A stretch of DNA of 64,000 nt from the human T2T-CHM13v2.0 reference genome, Homo sapiens: assembly GCF_009914755.1 (NCBI RefSeq), contig NC_060929.1, one strand, 5' to 3'. Every line of letters starts with the position of its first letter. The first letter of the stretch is position 1. The notes below the pieces were generated by a model. That model ran no database searches and was not told the DNA's origin. It saw nothing but the letters and a program-made list of their open reading frames with translations. Made by a program: the position numbers and the translations under genes. Shown here one piece after another: positions 10,417 through 45,250 of the stretch.

Positions 10417-10532
10417 GTTGACTGTGGTGAGTTCCAGGACACCAAGGTCTACTGCACTCGGGAATCTAACCCACACTGTGGCTCTGATGGCCAGACATAT
10501 GGCAATAAATGTGCCTTCTGTAAGGCCATAGT
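10417..10532 (+). CDS. SPINK6: SPINK6 coding exon 3, Kazal domain core [39 protein letters not shown]
   Basis: Acceptor ttggtAG at 10415-10416, 116-nt exon, donor GTaagt at 10533. Five Kazal cysteines with C-x7-C and CGSDGxTYxNxCxxC motifs; P1 Arg in CTRE. Confidence 0.97.
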
Positions 10533-11411
10533 GTAAGTATTATATTCATCAAAGCTGACCCTTGCAAACACAAACTTCCATAATAAGACTAAGACACTTT
10601 TTCGAGGTATTATAGAAAACACCCATACCTCCCCATAGAGACTGAAGAAACAAGCTTCAGGCAATTTGATTGAAAACAGATGGGTCAAAAGCAACAAAAA
10701 CATTACATACTAAATTATTTGAAGACATAATCTTAATCGCTTTGCTTTGTTATTATTAATTTTTATTGTCTTAGACAAGTTTTCAAAAACATTCACACAT
10801 CTTATACATTATAACTTATTATATTTAATAATTTTGATATGTTTTAATGTTTTCATTTGTTTCTAATTAGAATTTGCAATATCAATACATAATGAACATA
10901 TGTCTACACTTATATATAACACATCTGACTAATTAATACCAAACTTTTCTCAGGAGAAAGTCAGTGGTGTAATATGAGATTTGAATTAATAGATGCATAT
11001 TACTGAGAGGGCTTGAATGTGTCACCTGCTCTAAAATGTCAAACGCCTGAATATCTGTTTCAACTTCTTACATCTTCTGTCAGAAAAAAACTATAGTCCC
11101 TTTGTCATTATTTCTCCTGTGACCTCTACCTTTTTCAATGGTATACATATTTACTCTTGGAGAATGAGCAATTGGTACCAAAAAGTCTAAGACTTATGAT
11201 AACTCTGAAATTTGTTTAAGATTCATACTTTCCACAGCTAGGCCAGATGTAACCTCTGAGTGCATTTAATTAACATCTTCTGAATCATATAAATGGAATT
11301 TATAGAATCAAATAATTAAATGGACCATGCCATTGTTAAATATGTTTAGAACTTCTATGGTGAGTACTTACGATATTGCACTGAGTATATATTTGTCTTT
11401 CTTTTTTGTAG

Positions 11412-11457
11412 GAAAAGTGGTGGAAAGATTAGCCTAAAGCATCCTGGAAAATGCTGA
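11412..11457 (+). CDS. SPINK6: SPINK6 terminal coding exon (KSGGKISLKHPGKC-stop)
   Basis: Acceptor ttttttgtAG at 11410-11411; phase 2 matches exon 3; sixth Cys followed by TGA at 11455-11457. Confidence 0.96.
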
Positions 11458-35117: not shown

Positions 35118-35166
35118 ATGAGGGCTTTCATTTTCTTTCTCTTCATGCTCCTGGCCATGTTCTCAG
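35118..35166 (+). CDS. MARCOL: MARCOL exon 1, signal peptide MRAFIFFLFMLLAMFS
   Basis: accATG context, hydrophobic 16 codons plus 1 nt, donor G|GTAAGA at 35167 (phase 1). Confidence 0.9.
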
Positions 35167-38100: not shown

Positions 38101-38971
38101 GTACTTAGCTCTAAAGTCATTCCATTTGTTTATTTATTGTTTTTTAGATCCTGCTCATTATGGAATATAATCTGAAAAAACATAAAACATATACACATAC
38201 ACACAATTACATATATTTCATTAGGGCATAGGTGGGCTTCCAAAATAAGTTGGAGAAGCTATAAAACACAGGGTTTAAGAAATAATCGTGATATTTACCA
38301 TTCTCTTGAGCAATTTGACCAAAATAGAAAGAAGAAATATAACCACCAGAGAGAGCATGATTGATCCTAAGGCCTTTTGTTGGAAATGGTGAACATAAAG
38401 CTGATTGAAAGACACATGTTCTGAAGGAGAAAGGAAACATCTGTTTTAGGGATGGAAATGGAAAGAAAGATGGCTACAGATAATATGTATAGAGATGGAA
38501 GTGAGAAGAATAAAGTGGGGCTCACGTCTGCCAGCCTTTTCCTGTCTGGAAAGTTGATGGCGTTATCCGTAAAGTGAAGCTGGAAAATTAGGAATAAAGT
38601 ACTTGGTGTGAAAAAATAAGTTTATAATGAGCATTGAGCAGAGCCAGTTTGATTCATCAGAAAACCATTTAAAGGAATTGGGGGTAGAATGAAGTCTCAA
38701 TTCAAATAATTCAGACTTTATGATTTAGAAATGGGGCAAGTTGGATTGATCCTCTAATTTTTGAAATCCATATAGTACAGTAAAGAAAACAAAGGAGGAA
38801 CCCAAATATTCAGGATATGAGGAAGAACGAGAAGATTCTATCTTGGGGCTTGGTTAAAAAATCAAGAAAGCATTAAAAACATACTATATCTTGGACAAAT
38901 GTTGTTGATTTAAAATTATTTAATGTATATAACTTTATTTTCATTTTTTTCTGGTTGTGTTATTATTCCAG

Positions 38972-39780
38972 CATCTTCAACCCAGATTTCAAATACCAGT
39001 GTCTTCAAACTAGAAGAGAATCCAAAACCTGCACTTATTCTGGAGGAAAAAAATGAAGCTAACCATCTAGGAGGACAAAGAGATTCTAATAAGCAAGGAG
39101 GTAGTTATACACAAGGAAATCCAGGAACGTTTAGGCTTCAAGGACTACCAGGCTATTTTAACAAGCTAGAGAAACCAAGACATTTTAAGCAAGGGAGAGC
39201 AGGAGTTTTAAACCAGCCTGGGATTTTAAAGAATTCAGGAAAATCTAACCAAAAAGGGAATCCAGAATCTTCTAATAAGCAGGAAAACTCAGGATCTTCT
39301 AGCCAACTAGGGAGACCAGGGATTTCTACCCAACAGGGAAATCCAGGGTCATCTGACCAACAAGAGAAACCAGGGTCATTTAGCCAGAAAGTGATGGTGG
39401 GGTCATCTAGCCAACAGGGGAAGCCAGGATCATCTAGCCAACACGGGAATCTAGGGTCATCAACCCAGAAAGGGAATTTAGGATCTTCTAGCCTACAAGG
39501 GCATCTGGGTTTATCTAGCCATCAAGGGAAGCCGGAGTCATCTGGCCAACAGGGGAAGCCAGGGTCATCTAGCCAGCAAGGAAATCTAGGAACTTCTGGC
39601 CAACAGGAGAAGCCAGGATCTTCTAGCCAACAGGGGAAGCCAGGGTTGTCTAGCCATCAAGGGAAGCCAGGGTCATCTAGCCAACAAGGAAATCTACATT
39701 TATCTAGCCAGCAAGGGAATCAAGGACCTTCTAGCAAACAGAGGAAGCCAGGTTCATCCAGCCGTCAAGGAAATCTATGA
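38972..39780 (+). CDS. MARCOL: MARCOL exon 2 coding part: secreted Gly/Ser/Gln/Lys/Pro 9-aa repeat protein (spliced product 285 aa)
   Basis: Acceptor ttattccAG at 38970-38971, phase 1 (G+CA = Ala). 49+809 = 858 nt = 285 aa + TGA. Sequence ASSTQISNTSVFKLEENPKP...RQGNL recognised as MARCO-like protein. Confidence 0.9.
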
Positions 39781-40074
39781 TTATCTAGCCAGCAAGGGAA
39801 TATAGGATCTCCTAGCCAAAAGGAGAAGCCAGAGTCTTCTAGCCAACAAGGGAATCTAGGGTCATCTAGCTATCAAGGGAAGCCAGTGTCATCTAGCCAA
39901 CAAGGGAAGCCAGTGTCATCTAGCCAACAAGGGAAGCCAGGGGCATCTAGCCAGCAAGGAGATCTAGGATCTTCTAAGCAGCAGGGGAAGCCAGGATCAT
40001 CTAGCCAGCAAGGAAATATAGGGTCATCTGGCCAGGAATGGAAGCCAGAGCCATCTAGCCATCAGAGAAAATTA
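39238..40074 (+). repeat. 27-bp coding tandem repeat, 31 units in unbroken register (consensus GSSSQQGKP / GSSSQQGNL)
   Basis: Units recur every 27 nt from 39238: 20 before the TGA at 39778 and 11 from it onward. Confidence 0.92.
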
Positions 40075-41758
40075 AGGTCATTTTACAACCAACGACAAAG
40101 AAAAAATATCGACAGCACTTTTGATGGCAATATAACGGACTTTGAGGTTAGTGCTAATAACTTCTTTTTCTCAGTCAACTTGACCCAGCAATTCTCTTTT
40201 CCAAGACTTAAAATGCTTTAAAAACCACAGTGTGTTAATGAAAAGTCACTTGCAATGACACTGATCAAACAAAATGAGAAGAACTTTGGAGCTGATTATT
40301 TTCATGCATAACACTTATGATTATTAATGAATGTACTGCCCTTCTATTCTTTCATTTCCCTCTATTATTTTCCACTCAAACCTCCCTACCTATACTAGAA
40401 TAACTCAGATCCTCATCAACTGAGCCCACATCTTTGCCAGGTTTAACTTTCATGTCCATTTTTATCCCATCCGTAATCTATAAATCACTGAAGTAATATT
40501 CCTAAATCAAAAATCCTCTCTGATATTTTAGACCCCTGCTTGAAATTCCCCAGTGGCTTCATACTACCTAGAAGATGTAACTTAAACTCCTAAACATAGA
40601 ATTTACAGATTTTCATGATTATACTGCATACTGTTTAGCCTCATTTCATGTCACTGTTGCTCACACACCACCCATGTCATACAGAGCCCTTTGATTTTCC
40701 ACTCATGTATTCCTAATACTAATGATTTCCTCTATTATTAAACTCACCTTAACACTTTGTAATTGTCTATTATCAGCTAGATAATGAACTTCTTGAAGAA
40801 AGTACCATGTATCCCCAGAACCTAGAATAAGTGTGGCATGTAGTAAGTTCTCCTGAACTGCATGTTAGATGGATAGATTAATGCCTGCTACTTGGAAGCT
40901 ACCATTTCAAATAGGTGAACATATCTGATCCACATGTCTCCTGTATTCCCTTTTGAATCCTGCTGCGCTTTTACTTTCACTTGCCTGCCTCTCTTCCAAC
41001 AATCGGCCTCCTGATTTATTTAACAATTGCTTTGAATACTCCGTTTGATACTCACATTCAAAACAGTTTTCTAGAACACTATCTTATCATCTTAATGGAA
41101 ACCATTTTTTTACCTCATAAATTTTCATTCCTCACAAGCCTTCCAGATGAAAGTCATTTGTTCTCTTAGTCATTATCAGTTGGCTGGCATGAAGTAGTAA
41201 TCTCTCAGAGAGACTCCCTACCATTCAGTTCTTAATGCCATCACCAGCAGGTCTCTGAGTTTTTAGGATGTCACTTAAATTTTTGCAATTTTATATTTAT
41301 TCTAGAATAGGAGAAATAACCATGTCCAATTAACACAGTATGTGTGAAATAAATTGATCGTTATGAAAGGGTTGTATGATTTGGAAAATATGAAGGTTTT
41401 TTTTATCTCCCTACAACATCTCAGCTCTGAGAATTCCACATCCTCTATTAAAAATGTCTCATCATTCTCATTAATGACTCTGTTCTCACCTGCTAGTCAA
41501 AGGGTACTTATATTCACAGGCTTCTGCCATTTAGCTCACATCCAAAGAAAATGCATCAGGTATTATTTAAATAAATCCTGCATAATCCTACTTCCTGTAT
41601 AATTTTTTTCATGGGCATACCAAAAAAAGGAAATCAACAAATTATGACTGTATGCGTTTTGCATTTGCTTGTGTGACTTTTCCCTGACTATTGTTTGTCC
41701 AGGTAGAGGAAGAATTGCCTCCAGAAAATTAAAATGGAGGCAGTCTGACATATAGTAA

Positions 41759-45250
<3,492 letters not shown>

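What the first reader, a model, noticed from the sequence alone, without database searches (positions are those of the whole stretch)
39778..40152. The MARCOL stop codon looks premature: 122 in-frame sense codons follow
Seen: TGA at 39778 occupies the first, usually Gly, position of a repeat unit (GGA to TGA is one change). The frame stays open through 11 units and a unique tail (RSFYNQRQRKNIDSTFDGNITDFE) to a donor at 40147; restoring it gives 408 codons to the donor. Inference: a fairly recent nonsense mutation. If the donor is still used, the stop lies 366 nt upstream of a junction and the mRNA would be an NMD target, so the 285-aa protein may be a pseudogenising remnant. The context TGA-TTA is not the strong TGA-CTAG read-through motif.
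Basis: partly seen in the sequence, partly recalled or inferred. Interest (0 to 1): 0.75.

Follow-up and report, generated by a model that had tools for sequence, protein, structure and literature searches.

The report
Human MARCOL: truncated Kazal-inhibitor gene remnant
The stop codon of human MARCOL cuts short a reading frame that in other mammals runs on into a protease-inhibitor (Kazal) domain, and the exons for that domain cannot be found in the human genome, so the human gene is a shortened remnant.

Summary
TGA at 39778-39780 sits at the usually-Gly position of unit 20 in a 30-unit, 27-nt in-frame array. After it come 122 sense codons, ending at a GAG|GTTAGT donor at 40147.

Comparison explains it. 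All 31 database relatives are from non-primate mammals or unnamed contigs, and 30 of them read through the array into a 27-residue tail. The human post-stop tail is colinear with that tail, and so is the start of intron 2. Twenty of the 31 continue into one Kazal domain. MARCOL is therefore a SPINK-cluster gene, not a MARCO or collagen relative. The human TGA is premature relative to the ancestral frame.

The Kazal exons were not found in the window, in 10 kb beyond it, or genome-wide, while the SPINK6 exons scored as positive controls. The donor has no ancestral partner, so the NMD scenario is untested.

"Recent" cannot be shown. The open frame is compatible with ages up to 51-272 My, and no primate sequences were obtainable. 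The case is an ordinary lineage-specific truncation of an uncharacterised gene and of moderate interest.

The parts
35118..35166 (+). MARCOL exon 1 coding part: hydrophobic signal-peptide-like start (MRAFIFFLFMLLAMFS), 49 nt, leaves phase 1
   Evidence: same phase as SPINK6 exon 1 (58 nt, phase 1); orthologue N-termini align
38972..40146 (+). Ancestral extent of exon 2 (1175 nt, ends in phase 0): N-terminal unique part, repeat array, tail
   Evidence: horse, ruminant, bat, carnivore and rodent proteins cover it end to end
39253..40062 (+). Tandem array of 30 in-register 27-nt units, consensus CAAGGGAAGCCAGGGTCATCTAGCCAA = QGKPGSSSQ
39766..39792 (+). Unit 20, which carries the stop (QGNL*LSSQ)
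39778..39780 (+). Annotated MARCOL stop codon TGA, at unit position 5 (Gly in 22 of 30 units)
39781..40146 (+). 122 in-frame sense codons after the stop (rest of unit 20, 10 units, 27-codon tail)
40066..40146 (+). 27-codon tail RKLRSFYNQRQRKNIDSTFDGNITDFE, colinear without gaps with the end of exon 2 of other mammals (consensus GKSRSFYNQEERKNVGNPLNDNTMEIQ)
40097..40106 (+). Genomic A-rich run AAAGAAAAAA, where the annotated transcript ends; no AATAAA or ATTAAA between 39701 and 40737
   Evidence: hub annotation table
40147..40152 (+). Orthologous exon-2 splice donor GTTAGT (context GAG|GTTAGT)
   Evidence: junction position identical in orthologues
40147..40400 (+). Start of ancestral intron 2, colinear with the intron read-through of unnamed single-ORF predictions and therefore retained in human
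   Evidence: E 4.6e-21 for P0010 over 40069-40350, plus 40353-40400

Best explanation
Human MARCOL is the shortened remnant of a SPINK-family gene. The ancestral boreoeutherian gene encoded four parts. First a signal peptide (exon 1). Then a long exon 2 holding a variable array of 9-residue Gln/Lys/Gly/Ser units and a 27-residue tail. Then a single Kazal-type protease-inhibitor domain on two further exons.

Two things separate the human gene from that form. A TGA now stands at a normally-Gly codon in unit 20 of the array, one base from GGA. The two Kazal exons can no longer be found. The 122 open codons behind the stop and the good donor at 40147 are leftovers of the ancestral exon 2. They are not a hidden extension that is still in use.

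What human cells can make at most is a 285-residue secreted repeat protein without the inhibitor domain.

Shown: the stop, the frame, the orthology of tail and donor, the Kazal domain in other mammals, and the failure to find it in human.

Inferred: the direction of change (loss in the lineage to human), that the ancestral codon was GGA, and that the repeat part serves as a transglutaminase-cross-linkable anchor like the repeat domain of trappins.
For: (1) Position and frame of the stop, the 122 codons and the donor.

(2) One search gave 31 relatives. Twenty-four are named, all non-primate mammals from ruminants, horse, carnivores, bats, pangolin, rodents and rabbit. Seven are unnamed.

(3) Thirty of the 31 carry the tail motif at the end of exon 2, and the human tail has the same 27-residue length.

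(4) The seven unnamed proteins are single open frames from raw contigs. They run through the whole array and into intron 2. Five of the six I used as queries are colinear with the human sequence from 40066-40069 into the intron (as far as 40400 for P0010; E down to 4.6e-21).

(5) Twenty of the 31 have Kazal Pfam domains and the core C..YKPVCGSDGKTYGN.C.F.EAK. Five of five rescanned scored 45-53 bits for PF00050 against a cut-off of 21.

(6) The human read-through ORF has no Kazal match.

(7) tblastn with 8 orthologues at E up to 10 found Kazal matches in the window only at the SPINK6 exons (10444-10593, 11410-11454).

(8) Profile searches of all six frames of window plus 10 kb (1-74000) found only SPINK6 exon 3 (8.8e-10) and exon 4 (0.0067). 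Nothing downstream of 40147 scored better than 0.48.

(9) A genome-wide search with a 55-residue Kazal segment gave 32 matches. The best identity on chromosome 5 was 58%, at places that fall within SPINK9, and within SPINK6, SPINK13 and SPINK5 by the hub table, plus one at 148363724 that I take to be SPINK1 (recalled). None lies between MARCOL and SPINK13.

(10) Exon phases match SPINK6 (phase 1, then phase 0).

(11) The locus is single-copy in the genome.

(12) Differences of units from the consensus are biased towards synonymous changes on both sides of the stop. The counts are 42 synonymous to 58 non-synonymous before it and 14 to 28 after, on 6.3 against 20.7 sites per unit (Fisher p = 0.35). 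The post-stop units therefore diverged mostly while being read as protein.
Against: No primate or other close outgroup could be examined. The polarity, timing and order of the two lesions therefore rest on distant mammals only.

Most relatives are automatic gene models. One is flagged LOW QUALITY (P0004). One is a chimera with a trypsin domain (P0012). Three named models (rabbit, Chinese hamster, pangolin) lack the Kazal part, and only 9 of the 20 with the core end in the canonical ...GKC.

Failure to find the Kazal exons rests on protein-level searches. A very decayed or rearranged remnant could escape, although conserved paralogous exons were found.

Post-stop units could in part be later in-frame duplications rather than retained coding sequence. 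Units 39874-39900 and 39901-39927 are identical.

The post-stop absence of stops is not significant alone (P = 0.083).

No expression, ribosome or population data were available, so I cannot say whether the 285-residue product is made or is useful.
Confidence: 0.8

Rival explanations
1. The truncation is the working human form. After losing the Kazal domain the gene persists as a secreted, repeat-only protein, for example a cross-linkable surface or matrix component, and the TGA is simply its fixed stop. The downstream frame is a relic without consequence. This rival concerns function and is compatible with the best explanation.
For: Exon 1, the acceptor and the N-terminal part are intact. Human N-terminal identity to the consensus of the others is 61/96, within the 57-70 of 97-98 seen for rodents, bats and carnivores that keep the Kazal domain. 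The 19 whole units before the stop exceed the array length of all 20 orthologues parsed in register (4-16 units). Pre-stop unit differences are biased towards synonymous changes (42 to 58 on 6.3 against 20.7 sites). Precedent for an inhibitor gene giving rise to a cross-linkable repeat protein by exon loss comes only from the title of Hagstrom et al. 1996, seen in the reference list of PMC2831891.
Against: No expression, peptide or population-constraint data were available. The synonymous bias may date from before the truncation. The consensus is dominated by ruminants. Literature searches found the gene only in gene lists.
Confidence: 0.3
2. One reading: the donor at 40147 is still used, so the stop lies 366 nt before an exon junction and the mRNA is degraded by nonsense-mediated decay.
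For: The donor GAG|GTTAGT is intact. The annotated 3' end at 40106 abuts a genomic A-run and has no AATAAA or ATTAAA upstream. The first such hexamer after it is at 40737. The real 3' structure is therefore open and transcripts must run past the donor. The 50-55 nt rule for NMD is established knowledge.
Against: The ancestral acceptor exons were not found, so splicing would need a cryptic exon. The single RefSeq transcript has two exons and its stop lies in the last one (hub table). No RNA data could be consulted.
Confidence: 0.15
3. The TGA is a variant of the sequenced haplotype or a polymorphism, and many people carry an open codon there.
For: Tandem arrays mutate and rearrange readily. Two adjacent units are identical, which shows recent turnover.
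Against: The RefSeq coding sequence as placed on this assembly ends at exactly this codon (hub table), which suggests the reference mRNA has the same stop. This could not be tested with the tools at hand.
Confidence: 0.07
4. The stop is the ancestral end of the protein, and the open frame behind it exists only because repeat units copied from an open frame stay open.
For: P(no stop in the 10 post-stop units) is 0.083 under random placement of differences, which is not significant.
Against: The unique 27-codon tail and the donor are colinear with coding sequence and the exon boundary of other mammals. Thirty of 31 relatives read through the array.
Confidence: 0.03
5. The TGA is decoded, either by programmed read-through or as selenocysteine, so the long form is made.
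For: The frame is open for 122 codons behind the stop.
Against: No Rfam match of any kind, SECIS included, at E up to 1 in 38900-43000. The context is TGA-T, not the TGA-CTAG read-through motif (motif recalled). A long form would still lack a Kazal domain and would end in intron sequence at 40219-40221 if unspliced.
Confidence: 0.02

Closest known systems
Single-Kazal SPINK genes of the 5q32 cluster (SPINK6, SPINK9, SPINK7, SPINK13)
   Same: MARCOL lies between SPINK6 and SPINK13 (hub table). Exon 1 is a signal-peptide exon ending in phase 1 and exon 2 ends in phase 0, as in SPINK6. Orthologues end in a Kazal domain split over two exons, with the ending ...L.HEGKC like SPINK6's ...LKHPGKC.
   Different: Exon 2 is 1175 nt of tandem repeats instead of 23 nt. 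The orthologue Kazal domain has 4 cysteines, not 6 (9 of 9 complete C-termini). The human gene has no Kazal domain at all.
Trappin-2 / pre-elafin (PI3): a transglutaminase-substrate repeat domain followed by a protease-inhibitor domain
   Same: The architecture of the non-human MARCOL proteins is similar: secreted, with N-terminal short repeats that each carry Gln and Lys, and a small C-terminal disulphide-rich inhibitor domain. In trappins the KGQDPV repeats are cross-linked to matrix by transglutaminase (PMC2831891, Background passage). SPINK6 next door is also reported as cross-linked by transglutaminases (PMC8873584, passages).
   Different: The inhibitor domain is Kazal, not WAP. The unit is 9 residues, not 6. 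There is no sequence relationship, and cross-linking of MARCOL repeats is untested.
Seminal-vesicle transglutaminase substrates that arose from inhibitor-type genes by exon loss
   Same: A repeat-rich cross-linkable protein is left after loss of the inhibitor-coding exon. That is what human MARCOL would be if it is still functional.
   Different: [quoted passage not shown] The rest is recalled. It is a different gene family and tissue.
MARCO / class A scavenger receptors (source of the gene's name)
   Same: A marginal Pfam Collagen match in the repeat region (30.2 bits against a cut-off of 27.2, with no single stretch passing).
   Different: Gly occurs at positions 2 and 5 of a 9-residue unit but not at position 8, so there is no Gly-X-Y run. 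No SRCR domain was found in the human or orthologue scans. The protein starts with a cleavable-looking signal sequence rather than a type II anchor (seen in the sequence, not run through a predictor).
Unitary (lineage-specific) pseudogenes and truncated genes in human
   Same: It is single-copy, intact in other orders, and carries disabling changes in human: an in-array nonsense codon and missing terminal exons.
   Different: It is still annotated as protein-coding with an intact 285-codon frame. Loss of function is not shown.

Membership tests
Kazal-type serine protease inhibitor (SPINK) family | A Kazal domain (Pfam PF00050 / PF07648) | tested here: not met
   Human: none in the read-through ORF, none downstream to window position 74000, and no MARCOL-like Kazal exon genome-wide. 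Orthologues: present in 20 of 31 and 5 of 5 rescanned. The human gene therefore descends from the family but is not a structural member.
Kazal-type serine protease inhibitor (SPINK) family | Position in the 5q32 SPINK cluster and shared exon-phase pattern | tested here: met
   Hub table places it between SPINK6 and SPINK13. Phases are 1 then 0 in both MARCOL (49 nt, +1175 nt) and SPINK6 (58 nt, +23 nt).
Kazal-type serine protease inhibitor (SPINK) family | Six conserved cysteines forming three disulphides | tested here: not met
   Orthologues have 4 cysteines in the Kazal part in 9 of 9 complete C-termini, against 6 in SPINK6. Human has none.
MARCO / collagenous scavenger receptors | Gly-X-Y collagen repeats with Gly at every third residue | tested here: not met
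   The unit QGKPGSSSQ has Gly at positions 2 and 5 only. The Pfam Collagen match is 30.2 bits against a 27.2 cut-off, with 0 stretches passing on their own.
MARCO / collagenous scavenger receptors | C-terminal SRCR domain | tested here: not met
   No SRCR family at E up to 0.01 in the human read-through or in 5 orthologues.
Nonsense-mediated-decay target | Stop more than about 50-55 nt upstream of a spliced exon junction | tested here: inconclusive
   The stop-to-donor distance is 366 nt, so the geometry fits. The annotated transcript ends at 40106 and does not use the donor (hub table), and the ancestral acceptor exons were not found.
Nonsense-mediated-decay target | The junction is actually formed and the RNA is stabilised when NMD is blocked | not testable with these tools
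   No RNA data were available.
Unitary pseudogene | Intact orthologues elsewhere, a disabling lesion here, and no second copy | tested here: met
   orthologues with Kazal; stop and missing exons; all 5 genome matches lie at this one locus.
Unitary pseudogene | Loss of expression or of selective constraint | tested here: inconclusive
   The human tail is the most diverged of 21 sequences (11/27 to consensus; tail to N-terminus ratio 0.64, the lowest). The tail is weakly conserved everywhere and the numbers are small. The pre-stop part is not unusually diverged.
Recoded stop (selenocysteine or programmed read-through) | A SECIS element or a known read-through context | tested here: not met
   0 Rfam matches at E up to 1 in 38900-43000. 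The context is TGA-TTA.
Trappin-like anchored inhibitor (works-like comparison) | Short tandem units carrying Gln and Lys, followed by an inhibitor domain | tested here: met
   Orthologues have QGKPGSSSQ units followed by a Kazal domain. Human keeps only the units.
Trappin-like anchored inhibitor (works-like comparison) | Cross-linking by transglutaminase | not testable with these tools
   This is a biochemical assay. The analogy rests only on passages in PMC2831891 and PMC8873584.

The most novel reading that the evidence does not exclude
Human MARCOL is not a dying gene. It has changed from an anchored Kazal protease inhibitor into a secreted repeat-only protein that serves as a transglutaminase substrate. 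The human array has 30 units, 19 of them before the stop, which is more than in any orthologue I could count. The loss of the inhibitor exons and the in-array stop are steps of that conversion. This would parallel the way seminal-vesicle clotting proteins are thought to have arisen from trappin-type inhibitor genes by exon loss.
Probability: 0.2. Interest if true: 0.55.

Novelty: new member of a known kind. Interest (0 to 1): 0.4.

Why it matters
MARCOL is an uncharacterised human gene with a misleading name. The comparison shows that it belongs to the SPINK protease-inhibitor cluster, whose members guard stratified epithelia. It also shows that the lineage leading to humans has lost the inhibitor domain that other mammals keep.

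This matters in three ways:
- Annotation: the name, the Collagen domain label and the doubtful 3' end at 40106 all need review.
- Use of animal models: the non-primate protein is an inhibitor and the human one cannot be.
- Catalogues of lineage-specific gene loss.

It gives no new mechanism. The event itself, a nonsense codon plus exon loss, is of an ordinary kind.

Tried and rejected
- **MARCOL in print:** searching 'MARCOL' as a whole word gave 459 papers, and the 30 listed concern the mineral oil Marcol or persons. 'MARCO-like' gave 7 papers, none on this gene by title or abstract start.
- **MARCOL with SPINK:** 46 papers. The two I opened matched only the author names Marcolla and Marcolongo.
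- **Six-term search:** only two papers among those listed held MARCOL, both by their titles expression studies that I did not open. MARCOL with Kazal gave 2 papers, not opened. MARCOL with 'epiderm' gave name matches only, judging by titles. I found no paper on the gene's structure or evolution. Supplementary tables were not searched.
- **Gm94:** my recalled guess that mouse Gm94 is the orthologue was wrong. Gm94 is tied to C5orf46 / AP-64 (listing and abstract).
- **Whole-protein alignment:** MAFFT misplaced the human tail because of the long array. I replaced it with motif-anchored tails and tblastn.
- **Tail against intron conservation:** this was meant as a test of relaxed constraint and proved undiscriminating. 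In non-primate pairs the tail (14-17 of 26-27) is no better conserved than the start of the intron (10-24 of 22-38). Human against the others gives 9-13 of 26-27 for the tail and 5-34 of 18-71 for the intron.
- **Dating from the open frame:** the mean time to the first disruption is 17-91 My, which gives no useful bound.
- **Looking for primates:** the 'near' search returned no primate and not even the human protein. The 'shorter' search returned one unnamed 150-residue fragment identical to the window that ends before the stop.
- **Unit parser:** the script worked in register for 20 of 31 relatives (4-16 units). It misparsed 4 (P0006, P0007, P0023, P0027) and skipped 7. One of the skipped, Dipodomys P0005, has about 20 units by my eye count. 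Notebook entry 2 wrongly says 17 parsed; the correct number is 20.
Full report
**What is in the sequence**

The MARCOL frame starts at ATG 35118. Exon 1 coding is 49 nt, and exon 2 runs from 38972. In this frame TGA stands at 39778-39780 after 285 sense codons. The frame then stays open for 122 further codons to base 40146. GT follows at 40147 in the context GAG|GTTAGT, and the total is 408 codons.

Exon 2 contains a tandem array with a 27-nt period (Tandem Repeats Finder: 30.6 copies, 71% matches). Written out, it is 30 units in perfect register from 39253 to 40062, with consensus QGKPGSSSQ. The stop is codon 5 of unit 20. That position is Gly in 22 of 30 units, and GGA is used in 9 of them, so a single G-to-T change is a sufficient origin.

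**Is the open frame more than chance?**

The two other frames of 39781-40146 hold 6 and 12 stops. I placed each unit's observed number of differences from the consensus at random. That predicts 8.3 stops in the 30 units, and one is seen (P of at most one = 0.0014). For the 10 post-stop units alone, the chance of no stop is 0.083.

Differences from the consensus lean towards synonymous changes on both sides of the stop. The counts are 42 synonymous to 58 non-synonymous before it and 14 to 28 after, on 6.3 synonymous and 20.7 non-synonymous sites per unit. The two sides do not differ (Fisher p = 0.35). These counts are rough, because units share differences by descent. They suggest that the whole array, including its post-stop part, diverged mainly while it was read as protein.

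**What the frame used to encode**

A search with the exon-2 frame, stop read as X, returned 31 proteins. Twenty-four are named. All are 'MARCO-like' or Kazal-domain proteins of non-primate mammals: deer, sheep, serow, reindeer, horse, dog, bear, hyaena, cats, mustelids, bats, pangolin, kangaroo rat, beaver, voles, hamster and rabbit. Seven are unnamed open frames from short contigs.

Thirty of the 31 read through their own array into a tail with consensus GKSRSFYNQEERKNVGNPLNDNTMEIQ. The exception is P0029. The human post-stop tail RKLRSFYNQRQRKNIDSTFDGNITDFE has the same 27-residue length and ends at the same junction.

The seven unnamed proteins are single open frames that run from intron 1 through exon 2 into intron 2. 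Their intron read-through (VSANFSFF..., VSVNLSFFSSVNSLQSFYFP...) is colinear with the human sequence beyond the donor, as far as 40400 (E 4.6e-21 for P0010). The donor at 40147 is therefore the orthologous exon-2 donor, and the start of intron 2 is retained in human.

Beyond that junction, 20 of the 31 proteins continue with ...TKC.SIYKPVCGSDGKTYGN.C.F.EAKR. Nine of those 20 end in LSNGKL.L.HEGKC. Pfam calls this a Kazal domain. It appears in 20 of 31 in the precomputed column. On rescanning, 5 of 5 scored 45-53 bits for PF00050 against a cut-off of 21.

The 11 proteins without the domain are accounted for as follows:
- Seven are the unnamed intron read-through frames.
- One is a chimeric model joined to a trypsin domain (P0012).
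- Three are models that stop at or in intron 2 (rabbit, Chinese hamster, pangolin).

One sheep model is flagged LOW QUALITY (P0004).

**Family placement**

MARCOL lies between SPINK6 and SPINK13 (hub table). Its exon 1 ends in phase 1 and its exon 2 in phase 0, exactly as in SPINK6, where the exons are 58 nt and 23 nt. The last two ancestral exons correspond to the two Kazal exons of SPINK6. MARCOL is therefore a SPINK-cluster gene whose small second exon has been replaced or expanded by a repeat array.

The name 'MARCO like' rests on a marginal Collagen match (30.2 bits against 27.2, with no single stretch passing). The units have Gly at positions 2 and 5 but not 8, so there is no Gly-X-Y run, and no SRCR domain is present.

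**The Kazal exons in human**

The human read-through frame has no Kazal match. I ran tblastn with eight orthologues against the whole window at E up to 10 and word size 2. The only Kazal matches were at the SPINK6 exons (10444-10593 and 11410-11454).

I built profiles from the 20 exon-3 segments and from the 9 complete C-termini. I ran them over every stop-to-stop piece of 8 or more residues in all six frames of the window plus the next 10 kb (positions 1-74000). They found SPINK6 exon 3 (8.8e-10) and exon 4 (0.0067) as positive controls. Nothing better than 0.48 appeared downstream of 40147.

A genome-wide search with a 55-residue horse Kazal segment gave 32 matches at E up to 10. On chromosome 5 the best identity was 58%. 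By the hub table those matches fall within SPINK9, SPINK6, SPINK13 and the SPINK5 span. One at 148363724 I take to be SPINK1 (recalled). None lies between MARCOL and SPINK13.

An orthologous exon that had merely decayed should still score well above paralogues. I therefore read this as deletion or replacement of exons 3 and 4, with the caveat that the search was at protein level only. The repeat exon itself is single-copy in the genome.

The stop is premature relative to the ancestral frame, and the 'would refute' condition is not met. But the gene is not one base away from being whole, because the domain the donor led to cannot be found.

The NMD idea needs the donor to pair with some non-ancestral acceptor, and that cannot be tested here. 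The annotated transcript ends at 40106, which is the last A of a genomic AAAGAAAAAA run. There is no AATAAA or ATTAAA between 39701 and 40737. That 3' end therefore looks like internal priming, and the true 3' structure is open.

No Rfam family, SECIS included, matches 38900-43000 at E up to 1. The context is TGA-T, so recoding is unlikely.

**Age of the stop**

Sixty-five of the 1098 possible single-base changes in the 122 codons would create a stop. That equals 22 site-equivalents with transitions taken as half of all changes. The mean time to the first disruption is then 17-91 My, and the 95% bound on the age of a still-open frame is 51-272 My. The rates are my assumptions.

The open frame therefore does not show that the stop is recent.

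The human tail is the most diverged of 21 sequences (11/27 identical to the consensus; tail to N-terminus ratio 0.64, the lowest). Human-to-other tail identities (9-13 of 26-27) are below those of non-primate pairs (14-17 of 26-27). This hints at a long period without constraint on the tail. However, the tail is weakly conserved in all species, the consensus is dominated by ruminants, and the numbers are small.

No primate sequence could be obtained. The first search returned none, not even the human protein. A search among shorter proteins returned only one unnamed 150-residue fragment identical to the window, which ends before the stop.

Because both Laurasiatheria and Glires have the Kazal form, both lesions fall on the lineage to human after its split from Glires. 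This is inference, and I cannot narrow it further.

**How it most likely works**

In other mammals the protein is a secreted single-Kazal inhibitor that carries a long array of units, each holding Gln and Lys. This is the architecture of trappins. There, KGQDPV repeats are cross-linked to matrix proteins by transglutaminase and hold a WAP inhibitor domain in place (PMC2831891, Background passage). The neighbouring SPINK6 is reported to be cross-linked by transglutaminases in epidermis (PMC8873584, passages citing Fischer et al. 2013).

I therefore propose, as inference only, that ancestral MARCOL is an anchored Kazal inhibitor of epithelial surfaces.

The orthologue Kazal domain is unusual in having four cysteines instead of six (9 of 9 complete C-termini). 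By alignment to SPINK6 by eye, the missing ones are the first and fifth.

Human MARCOL can at most provide the anchor without the inhibitor. The human array is long: 30 units, 19 of them before the stop. The 20 relatives that my script parsed in register have 4-16 units. Dipodomys, which the script skipped, has about 20 by my eye count. Whether the human product is still useful or is on the way to being a pseudogene cannot be decided here.

**Novelty and literature**

I found no paper on the structure, evolution or function of this gene. I saw listings only, plus passages of two papers that turned out to match author names. Supplements were not searched.

The fact that orthologues carry a Kazal domain is visible in public annotation: one UniRef name is 'Kazal-like domain-containing protein'. 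The finding is therefore a new, documented example of a known kind of event, a lineage-specific truncation of a gene. It is not a new mechanism.

Noticed in passing
window 38972-40146 and orthologues P0001-P0031: The name 'MARCO like' and the Collagen label are misleading. The gene is a SPINK-cluster member with SPINK6-like exon phases. Its repeats have Gly at positions 2 and 5 of 9, so they are not Gly-X-Y.
   Followed up: yes
orthologues P0006, P0007, P0008, P0013, P0018, P0019, P0020, P0023, P0029 (C-terminal 45 residues): The Kazal domain of non-primate MARCOL has four cysteines instead of the six of SPINK6. By eye, the partners of one disulphide (first and fifth Cys) are both absent. The residue two after the first remaining Cys, the usual P1 place (recalled), is Ser in all nine.
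   Followed up: partly
window 40097-40106: The RefSeq transcript ends on a genomic AAAGAAAAAA run with no AATAAA or ATTAAA upstream. The first hexamers after it are at 40737 and 41348. The annotated 3' end is probably an internal-priming artefact.
   Followed up: partly
window 39253-40062: The human array has 30 units, against 4-16 in the 20 relatives parsed in register and about 20 in Dipodomys by eye. TRF also reports a 108-nt (four-unit) higher-order period.
   Followed up: partly
window 39874-39927: Two adjacent post-stop units (39874-39900 and 39901-39927, QGKPVSSSQ) are identical in all 27 bases, a sign of a recent unit duplication.
   Followed up: no
window 39685-39711 versus 39766-39792: Unit 17 (QGNLHLSSQ) and the stop-bearing unit 20 (QGNL*LSSQ) are identical except for codon 5, CAT against TGA, which differ at all three bases. 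Both share the unusual TTA (Leu) at position 6. The one-step GGA-to-TGA origin is therefore plausible but not the only path.
   Followed up: no
P0012: One cat gene model joins MARCOL exon 2 to a trypsin-type protease domain (PF00089). It looks like a prediction artefact.
   Followed up: no
P0025, P0030, P0031: The rabbit, Chinese hamster and pangolin models end at or just inside intron 2 without a Kazal domain. This could be incomplete models or further independent losses.
   Followed up: no
Mouse Gm94 is discussed in a paper on human C5orf46 (AP-64), not on MARCOL. No mouse or rat MARCOL protein appeared in either protein search.
   Followed up: partly
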